Shown here one piece after another: positions 49,245 to 49,414 of a DNA stretch of 64,000 nt (its first letter is position 1; each line of letters starts with the position of its first letter). A program made the position numbers and the translations under genes. The notes under the pieces were generated by a model. The model was given only the letters and a program-made list of their open reading frames with translations. It did not search any database and was not told the origin of the DNA. The stretch spans positions 262,500-326,499 of the forward strand of contig CAZKQW010000001.1 of the NCBI GenBank assembly GCA_964555055.1, in the 5' to 3' direction. Origin of the DNA: an uncultured Pseudomonadota bacterium. GTDB lineage: Bacteria; UBA10199; JACPAL01; GCA-016699445.

Positions 49245-49414
49245 CGCACATTTAAGGAAAAATTTTTTTCACTACACTTCCTGATTTCTACATTTTGTAG
49301 TGTAAGAATTGTGCAGTACACATTAATTATTTTCAATAAATGTACTGTACATAACTCTTTCACGTGTAGTACAGTACAAGATGCCAATTTTTAAATTTTG
49401 TACTGTACAACTCC
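49245..49414. promoter_or_regulatory. AT-rich control region with four copies of a TGTACTGTACA-like operator motif in both orientations, plus a CTACAttttGTAG palindrome
   Basis: Copies: 49311-49321 gtgcagtacac; 49341-49351 tgtactgtaca; 49366-49379 gtagtacagtacaa; 49399-49409 tgtactgtaca (ends 6 nt before the ATG at 49415). Palindrome ctacattttgtag at 49288-49300. Confidence 0.45.

What the first reader, a model, noticed from the sequence alone, without database searches (positions are those of the whole stretch)
49245..49414. Operator array: four TGTACTGTACA-type half-palindromes in both orientations upstream of the cassette, the last abutting the start codon
Two identical 11-mers (TGTACTGTACA at 49341 and 49399) and two reverse-orientation variants (49311, 49366) are spaced 20-30 bp apart within ~100 bp, next to a CTACAttttGTAG palindrome. 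Multiple, phased dyad-like sites overlapping the promoter and RBS region are typical of tight autorepression of toxic operons (TA or Abi systems). The core ACTGTA also resembles LexA-box half-sites (CTGT...ACAG), so SOS or phage-triggered derepression is conceivable.
Basis: seen in the sequence. Interest (0 to 1): 0.55.

Follow-up and report, generated by a model that had tools for sequence, protein, structure and literature searches.

The report
Autorepressor operators of a DUF6788 cassette
The four repeats are real and are the arms of two long-spacer inverted-repeat operators that travel with an uncharacterised small protein (DUF6788) and its nucleotidyltransferase partner, most likely letting that protein shut off its own toxin-antitoxin-like operon.

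Summary
Four TGTACTGTACA-type 11-mers (49310, 49341, 49368, 49399) are the only copies with one mismatch or fewer in 64 kb. They form two inverted repeats, each with 11-nt arms and a 20-nt spacer. A third, degenerate unit lies upstream at 49266/49296.

Downstream are three translationally coupled genes: a 107-aa DUF6788 protein, a 229-aa NTP_transf_8 nucleotidyltransferase and a TIR-like protein.

The same array sits upstream of DUF6788 genes in 81 of 86 loci from many phyla. Arm-to-arm spacing is fixed near 31 bp. The half-site is GTTAC-NNN-ACA, and its central triplet changes with the protein clade: AGT here, CAT in most.

In 63 of 71 distant relatives a canonical TTGACA-17-TATAAT promoter interlocks with the proximal unit. 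The array persists where the nucleotidyltransferase is absent.

Best reading: DUF6788 is the cognate autorepressor. AlphaFold gives a helical hairpin capped by a three-stranded sheet, with no known DNA-binding homologue.

The LexA/SOS idea fails. The window's own promoter is not located, and binding and toxicity are untested. I rate this a new variant of a known kind: toxin-antitoxin autoregulation.

The parts
49266..49276 (+). O0 left arm, TTTTCACTACA. Degenerate third unit with central triplet ACT.
   Evidence: (I5). With 49296-49306 it is the only family-generic pair in 64 kb; 4 of 20,000 shuffles give one.
49296..49306 (-). O0 right arm, TGTAGTGTAAG (reverse complement CTTACACTACA).
49310..49320 (+). 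O1 left arm, TGTGCAGTACA (clade consensus GTTACAGTACA).
   Evidence: (I6). Core CAGTAC is invariant in 8 related loci.
49341..49351 (-). O1 right arm, TGTACTGTACA.
49368..49378 (+). O2 left arm, AGTACAGTACA. In the main clade the homologous arm fills the 17-nt spacer between -35 and -10.
   Evidence: (I1).
49399..49409 (-). O2 right arm, TGTACTGTACA. It ends 5 nt before the start codon.
49359..49364 (+). TTCACG, a -35-like hexamer (4 of 6) at the position homologous to the main-clade -35 (O2L-9). The homologous -10 position (49382-49387, TGCCAA) is poor at 2 of 6.
   Evidence: Assigned by homology of position only.
49346..49375 (+). Alternative promoter candidate built from the arms themselves: TGTACA (49346-51), 18 nt, TACAGT (49370-75).
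   Evidence: my own approximate scoring matrix. It recurs in L001, L002, L003, L009 and L010. Unverified.
49266..49294 (+). Alternative upstream promoter candidate: TTTTCA (49266-71), 17 nt, TACATT (49289-94), inside unit O0.
   Evidence: best score in the window's intergenic region. Unverified.
49415..49738 (+). 107-aa DUF6788 protein, the proposed operator-binding autorepressor and antitoxin-like partner.
   Evidence: (precomputed PF20586).
49735..50424 (+). 229-aa NTP_transf_8 (PF12281) nucleotidyltransferase-fold protein, the putative toxin or effector. ATGA overlap with the upstream gene.
   Evidence: E 1e-24; G28 and S29 invariant, D52 and D54 nearly invariant.
50421..51362 (+). 313-aa TIR-like protein with an ATGA overlap with the nucleotidyltransferase gene. 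It is an add-on specific to this locus.
   Evidence: TIR_2, E 1.4e-4, below cut-off.

Best explanation
The four 11-mers are the arms of two tandem operators, O1 and O2, with a degenerate third unit, O0, upstream. Each operator is an inverted repeat of an 11-nt half-site whose arms start 31 bp apart, about three helical turns, so they face the same side of the DNA. The family half-site is GTTAC-NNN-ACA; here it reads xGTAC-AGT-ACA.

The operators are the cognate binding sites of the 107-aa DUF6788 protein encoded immediately downstream. I infer that it binds as a dimer per unit, one three-stranded-sheet domain per arm, held apart by its long helical hairpin.

Occupying the proximal unit covers the core promoter and the start of the transcript. 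This would repress the DUF6788 / NTP_transf_8 / TIR-like operon, the negative autoregulation typical of toxin-antitoxin modules. The distal unit or units would add cooperativity or a roadblock.

Shown:
- the array is real;
- it is conserved with the module across phyla;
- its specificity triplet co-varies with the protein clade;
- it interlocks with a canonical promoter in relatives.

Inferred:
- DUF6788 is the binder;
- the effect is repression;
- the pair acts as toxin and antitoxin;
- where the window's own promoter lies.
For: 1. Non-random and local: the four sites are the only ones with one mismatch or fewer in 64 kb.

2. Phylogenetic footprint. In 8 loci of this clade (55-68% protein identity) arm columns are 96% conserved and non-arm columns 54%, Mann-Whitney p = 3e-16. 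All invariant columns lie in the arms or the start codon.

3. Family-wide architecture. Of 86 loci, 63 have two units, 18 have one and 5 have none or are truncated. Arm spacing is 31 nt in 118 of 145 pairs.

4. Concerted specificity switches. All four arms carry AGT in all 8 loci of this clade, CAT in 30, TAT in 2 and CAA in 2. A conserved left/right asymmetry (CTT/CAT) is seen in 4 loci.

5. Promoter interlock. 63 of 71 main-clade loci have a -35 at O2L-9 and a -10 at O2L+14, with a modal spacer of 17. The left arm therefore fills the promoter spacer and the right arm lies just after the transcription start.

6. The array tracks DUF6788, not the nucleotidyltransferase. It persists in orphan DUF6788 loci (L046, L047) and in loci where DUF6788 is followed by MNT-HEPN or HipBA genes (L067, L073, L042).

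7. The protein positions that co-vary most with the triplet cluster in the sheet (residues 38-63). Residue 63 is F with CAT/CAA/CTT, S with TAT, Q with AGT and Y with CCA/CTA.

8. The AlphaFold model is confident (pLDDT 92): helix 5-31, three strands at 38-67, helix 71-106. Weak fold hits of the sheet are to integrase arm-type, AP2 and homing-endonuclease DNA-binding domains.

9. Toxin-antitoxin-like gene organisation. In 55 of 61 scored loci the next ORF starts inside the DUF6788 gene (4 to 26 nt overlap by my start-codon calls). The module sits in unrelated neighbourhoods and has conserved GS and DxD motifs.
Against: - No binding, repression or toxicity data exist. No paper mentions DUF6788 or PF12281.
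- The residue-to-triplet association is confounded by shared ancestry.
- At the position homologous to the main-clade -10 the window has a poor hexamer (TGCCAA). The consensus scan finds no plus-strand sigma-70 site. Promoter overlap in this particular locus is therefore inferred.
- There is no Shine-Dalgarno sequence before the ATG.
- PADLOC and NCBIfam do not recognise the genes.
- Orphan copies of the main-clade operator occur in viral contigs with no DUF6788 gene nearby. Another binder is therefore conceivable.
Confidence: 0.68

Rival explanations
1. The array is a protein operator, but the binder is the NTP_transf_8 protein, the DUF6788-nucleotidyltransferase complex only, or a separate host regulator. 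DUF6788 alone would not bind.
For: DUF6788 has no recognisable DNA-binding fold. The two genes are almost always co-inherited, so covariation cannot separate them in most loci. Orphan operator-like sites occur in viral contigs that lack DUF6788.
Against: The array persists with DUF6788 where the nucleotidyltransferase is absent (L046, L047, L067, L073, L042). The nucleotidyltransferase has no extra domain beyond PF12281. A host factor would not change its specificity triplet along with the DUF6788 clade across Omnitrophota, Planctomycetota, Nitrospirota and others.
Confidence: 0.15
2. The inverted repeats act at the RNA level. Two hairpins in the 5' leader, the second next to the start codon, would control translation or mRNA stability.
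For: If transcribed, 49300-49430 folds into exactly two hairpins: -37.5 kcal/mol, z = -5.75. In this clade the last arm abuts the ATG and there is no Shine-Dalgarno sequence. An upstream promoter candidate exists at 49266-49294.
Against: In 63 of 71 main-clade loci the -10 lies inside the proximal unit. Its left arm and the whole distal unit are then not transcribed. All four arms keep the same sequence, which pairing does not require. The conserved CTT/CAT left/right asymmetry breaks pairing. No Rfam family reaches its threshold. The strong fold is a trivial consequence of any inverted repeat.
Confidence: 0.07
3. The sites are LexA/SOS boxes or sites of another global host regulator.
For: Only the superficial CTGT/ACAG content of the 11-mer.
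Against: No CTGT-N8-ACAG, even with one mismatch, lies in 49245-49414. There is no other copy of the 11-mer in 64 kb. The motif and its variants follow the DUF6788 module across phyla.
Confidence: 0.02
4. The repeats are recombination or mobility sites, such as terminal inverted repeats or arm-type integrase sites, that move the cassette.
For: The module sits in unrelated neighbourhoods and in a low-GC island. The sheet of DUF6788 weakly resembles integrase arm-binding domains.
Against: The sites occur only on the 5' side and never flank the module. No recombinase is in the module. Their register with the -35 and -10 is fixed to the base pair in relatives.
Confidence: 0.04

Closest known systems
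AbiE / Rv2827c-Rv2826c type IV toxin-antitoxin systems (AbiEi antitoxin with DUF1814 AbiEii nucleotidyltransferase toxin)
   Same: A bicistronic operon of a small upstream regulator and a nucleotidyltransferase-fold protein. The antitoxin negatively autoregulates by binding inverted repeats in the promoter. Rv2827c has two sets of inverted repeats (PMC3985639, PMC7319586).
   Different: The nucleotidyltransferase here is PF12281, not DUF1814. [quoted passage not shown] The arms are 31 bp apart, a much longer spacer. Nothing here has been tested experimentally.
MenAT nucleotidyltransferase toxin-antitoxin systems of M. tuberculosis
   Same: A nucleotidyltransferase-fold toxin paired with a small cognate partner. 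They offer a plausible model for what a toxic nucleotidyltransferase does, namely extension of tRNA acceptor ends (PMC7450476, PMC10435456).
   Different: A different Pfam family. No sequence relative of either window protein has a solved structure. The substrate of NTP_transf_8 is unknown.
hipBA operator array (four TATCC-N8-GGATA operators overlapping the promoter; recalled from memory, not checked here)
   Same: Several phased inverted-repeat operators cover the -35, the -10 and the transcription start of a toxin-antitoxin operon, with cooperative autorepression.
   Different: HipB is a helix-turn-helix protein and its dyads have 8-bp spacers. Here the arms are 31 bp apart and the candidate binder has no helix-turn-helix.
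Three-stranded-sheet DNA-binding domains (integrase arm-type domains 3jtz and 3rmp, AP2/ERF) and the prefoldin beta architecture
   Different: All Foldseek E-values exceed 0.01 and there is no sequence similarity. The resemblance is a lead, not evidence of membership.

Membership tests
Toxin-antitoxin autoregulatory operator (kind) | Inverted repeats overlap the core promoter of the operon they precede. | tested here: inconclusive
   Met in relatives: 63 of 71 main-clade loci have the -35 at O2L-9 and the -10 at O2L+14. In the window the -35-like TTCACG is present, the homologous -10 is poor, and no transcription start is known.
Toxin-antitoxin autoregulatory operator (kind) | Sites are specific to the module and co-evolve with its regulator. 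| tested here: met
   81 of 86 loci carry the array, and the triplet switches with the protein clade.
Toxin-antitoxin autoregulatory operator (kind) | The antitoxin binds the sites and represses. The toxin is growth-inhibitory and is neutralised by its partner. | not testable with these tools
   Needs gel shift or footprinting, reporter assays and toxicity assays.
AbiE (AbiEi/AbiEii) | DUF1814 (AbiEii) toxin and a two-domain AbiEi-family antitoxin. | tested here: not met
   Pfam gives only PF12281 for the 229-aa protein and nothing for the 107-aa protein. PADLOC gives nothing.
DUF6788 (PF20586) | Match to the family profile. | tested here: met
   Precomputed PF20586 on the identical protein P0001 and on nearly all of the 120 relatives listed, of 1086 found. 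My own hmmscan against the local Pfam copy gave no hit at E <= 0.1. That discrepancy is unexplained.
NTP_transf_8 (PF12281) | Profile match above the gathering score, with the nucleotidyltransferase GS and DxD motifs. | tested here: met
   88.2 bits against a cut-off of 26.3. G28 and S29 are invariant; D52 and D54 are nearly invariant.
LexA/SOS box | CTGT-N8-ACAG dyad. | tested here: not met
   No match with one mismatch or fewer in the region.
MNT-HEPN toxin-antitoxin | A HEPN partner adjacent to the minimal nucleotidyltransferase. | tested here: not met
   There is no HEPN gene in the window cassette. MNT-HEPN pairs lie next to DUF6788 only in L067 and L073.
TIR-domain defence effector (third gene) | TIR domain above the Pfam threshold. 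| tested here: inconclusive
   TIR_2 E 1.4e-4, 22.8 bits against a cut-off of 28. Some homologues carry precomputed PF13676.
Known RNA families (Rfam) | Match at the gathering score. | tested here: not met
   Best hit is RT-16 at 30 bits against 50, on the minus strand.

The most novel reading that the evidence does not exclude
DUF6788 is a previously unrecognised class of sequence-specific DNA-binding protein. A prefoldin-like helical hairpin would carry a three-stranded sheet that reads an 11-bp half-site. Dimerising into a rigid rod, it would act as a 31-bp molecular ruler. A few sheet residues, notably position 63, would encode the central-triplet specificity. Together with NTP_transf_8 it would define a large family of autoregulated toxin-antitoxin or defence modules: 1110 clusters at 50% identity contain a DUF6788 protein. 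In this locus the module has recruited a TIR-like effector.
Probability: 0.4. Interest if true: 0.65.

Novelty: new variant of a known kind. Interest (0 to 1): 0.52.

Why it matters
- It gives a first functional handle on two families with no literature, DUF6788 and PF12281. It supplies a defined operator, a predicted promoter layout and a candidate regulator.
- It yields a falsifiable specificity code, triplet against sheet residues, that swap experiments can test.
- If DUF6788 binds DNA as inferred, it adds a new DNA-binding architecture and an unusually long, rigid half-site spacing to the known toxin-antitoxin regulators.
- It flags a widespread nucleotidyltransferase module as a candidate toxin or defence system.

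Tried and rejected
- Metagenome scan for TACAGTAC-N18-26-GTACTGTA. None encodes DUF6788 or the nucleotidyltransferase, and most are (TACAG)n-type pentanucleotide microsatellites. Uninformative.
- The search for related loci in viral contigs found no DUF6788.
- PADLOC, NCBIfam and PHROGs gave nothing useful for any of the three proteins.
- PDB sequence searches, single and profile, gave nothing for either protein.
The afdb50 library was unavailable.
- LexA box: rejected.
- Flanking direct repeats of the low-GC island: none found.
- The consensus sigma-70 scan found no plus-strand promoter in the window. My own scoring-matrix scan gives three competing candidates and none is decisive.
- Host identity could not be obtained; the sequences carry no names.
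- Fusions: two DUF6788 N-termini are fused to AraC-type regulators with a periplasmic-binding-protein-like domain (P0351, P0386). Two cases are too few to interpret.

Full report
**Observation.** The intergenic region 49245-49414 lies between a class IV aminotransferase gene that ends at 49244 and an ATG at 49415. TGTACTGTACA occurs exactly at 49341 and 49399. Its reverse complement occurs with one mismatch at 49310 and 49368. No other site with one mismatch or fewer exists in the 64-kb window, and 0 of 100 dinucleotide shuffles reach the observed count. The sites pair into two inverted repeats with 11-nt arms and 20-nt A+T-rich spacers, named O1 (49310-20/49341-51) and O2 (49368-78/49399-409). 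O0 is the only pair in the window that fits the family-generic half-site. It arises in only 4 of 20,000 shuffles of the intergenic DNA.

**Context.** Three genes follow, coupled by ATGA overlaps:
- a 107-aa protein at 49415-49738. Its exact sequence is flagged PF20586/DUF6788 in the precomputed tables, although my hmmscan gave no hit;
- a 229-aa NTP_transf_8/PF12281 protein (E 1e-24), with G28/S29 invariant and D52/D54 nearly invariant across the family;
- a 313-aa TIR-like protein (sub-threshold TIR_2).

The cassette is a low-GC island, 0.35-0.48 against 0.55-0.63 in the flanks. Contigs that encode the identical 107-aa protein carry the same gene order around it.

**Comparative evidence.**
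- Homologues of the 107-aa protein at 52-68% identity lie in unrelated neighbourhoods. In the four looked up (P0002, P0005, P0008, P0009) an overlapping NTP_transf_8 gene follows and no TIR gene is present.
- All of them carry the same four-arm array upstream. In an alignment of eight such loci, arm columns are 96% conserved and other columns 54% (p = 3e-16). Every invariant column lies in an arm or the start codon.
- A scan of one genome per species recovered 80 more loci, mostly at 33-41% identity, from Omnitrophota, Planctomycetota, Nitrospirota and other groups.
- These lack the window's motif but have the same architecture with a different half-site, GTTACCATACA-N20-TGTATGGTAAC, usually present twice.
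- Over 86 loci, 63 have two units, 18 have one (the promoter-proximal one) and 5 have none or are truncated. Arm spacing is 31 nt in 118 of 145 pairs, and inter-unit spacing is 22-28 nt.
- The general half-site is GTTAC-NNN-ACA. The central triplet is AGT in this clade (all four arms in all 8 loci), CAT in the majority, and TAT, CAA, CTA or CCA in sub-clades. Four loci show a conserved CTT/CAT left/right asymmetry.

**Promoter.** In the main clade, 63 of 71 loci have a -35 (mode at O2L-9) and a -10 (mode at O2L+14) with a modal spacer of 17 nt. The consensus is TTGac....GTTACCATACAA.aTATaaT...tTGTATGGTAAC. The left arm of O2 therefore fills the promoter spacer, and the right arm lies just downstream of the predicted transcription start. 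A Shine-Dalgarno sequence follows in 51 of 71 loci. This is a classical repressor geometry.

In the window, the homologous -35 position holds TTCACG (4 of 6) but the -10 position holds TGCCAA (2 of 6). The consensus scanner finds no plus-strand promoter. My own scoring-matrix scan offers three other candidates:
- TGTACA-18-TACAGT, built from the arms O1R and O2L, which recurs in five clade members;
- TTTTCA-17-TACATT, inside O0;
- TAAATT at 49392.

All of them lie within or upstream of the array, so occupancy would still block initiation or elongation. The transcription start itself is unknown. No Shine-Dalgarno sequence precedes the ATG.

**Who binds?**
- The array stays with DUF6788 where NTP_transf_8 is absent. 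L046 and L047 are orphans, L067 and L073 are followed by HTH-MNT plus HEPN genes, and L042 is next to HipBA.
- The protein columns that co-vary most with the triplet cluster in residues 38-63. Residue 63 is F with CAT/CAA/CTT, S with TAT, Q with AGT and Y with CCA/CTA. This association is confounded by shared ancestry.
- AlphaFold (pLDDT 92) gives helix 5-31, three strands at 38-67 and helix 71-106.
- The rigid 31-bp spacing, together with a helical hairpin about 50 angstroms long, suggests a rod-like dimer with one sheet domain at each end. This is inference only.

**Rivals.**
- RNA hairpins. The region would fold strongly if transcribed (z = -5.75). In the main clade, however, O1 and the left arm of O2 lie upstream of the transcription start. 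All four arms also share one sequence, and the conserved arm asymmetry breaks pairing. No Rfam family reaches its threshold.
- LexA. No CTGT-N8-ACAG box is present, and the motif follows the module rather than the host.
- Mobility sites. The arms are never found on the 3' side.
- Another binder cannot be excluded. Exact main-clade operators occur in 7 viral contigs with no DUF6788 gene nearby.

**Comparison with known systems.** Functionally this resembles AbiE and Rv2827c, in which a nucleotidyltransferase toxin is paired with an antitoxin that autoregulates through one or two sets of promoter inverted repeats (PMC3985639, PMC7319586). It also resembles MenAT systems (PMC7450476, PMC10435456). 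It is not a member of those families: the nucleotidyltransferase is PF12281 rather than DUF1814, and the small protein is unrelated to AbiEi. No paper in the library mentions DUF6788 or PF12281. The family is large: 1086 sequence clusters at 90% identity and 1110 at 50%, almost all stand-alone proteins of about 105 aa.

**Verdict.** The operator and autorepression reading is supported by strong comparative evidence, with a corrected anatomy. The SOS idea is rejected. I rate this a new variant of a known kind, of moderate interest.

Noticed in passing
L216:3638-3677, L217:8191-8230, L218:7220-7258, L219:3559-3598 (IMG/VR contigs): Exact main-clade operators (GTTACCATACAA-N19-20-tTGTATGGTAAC, with a -10-like hexamer in the spacer) sit in intergenic DNA of viral contigs. 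No DUF6788 or NTP_transf_8 gene lies within the fetched flanks. My rough estimate of the chance expectation for 20 fixed bases is below 1, and 7 were found. They could be decoys, co-opted promoters or sites for another binder.
   Followed up: partly
window 50421-51362: The TIR-like 313-aa gene is translationally coupled (ATGA) to the nucleotidyltransferase gene only in this lineage. Its homologues at 39-73% identity sit in other defence-island contexts: next to an AAA_13 ATPase, next to an HTH plus PLD pair beside an integrase, and near PhdYeFM. None of those has DUF6788.
   Followed up: partly
L067:2995-4429 and L073:2238-3764: Here DUF6788, with its operators, is followed not by NTP_transf_8 but by an HTH-MNT nucleotidyltransferase plus HEPN pair. 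L067 also has a third upstream unit of a different specificity (CAA, spacing 33).
   Followed up: partly
L002:3001-3420 (protein P0008, 139 aa) and L003 (P0009, 113 aa): The database gene calls start too far upstream and translate through the operator array. The conserved start is the ATG at L002:3112 and L003:3034.
   Followed up: yes
window 49415-49738: The precomputed tables flag this protein as PF20586 (DUF6788). hmmscan against the local Pfam-A copy returns no family at E <= 0.1. This is an unexplained database discrepancy.
   Followed up: no
P0351 (530 aa) and P0386 (372 aa): These are rare proteins with a DUF6788-like N-terminus fused to a periplasmic-binding-protein-like domain and an AraC helix-turn-helix. 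They may be true regulator fusions or gene-call artefacts.
   Followed up: partly
window 49250-51400: A low-GC island (0.35-0.48 against 0.55-0.63 in the flanks) lies between the aminotransferase (pabC-like) gene and the thiamine-gene region, with no flanking direct repeats. The 248-aa minus-strand ORF at 51556-52302 has no family match.
   Followed up: partly
window 49410-49417: No Shine-Dalgarno sequence precedes the DUF6788 start codon here (ACTCC ATG). The same holds in most members of this clade, whereas 51 of 71 main-clade loci have GGAG-type sites.
   Followed up: partly
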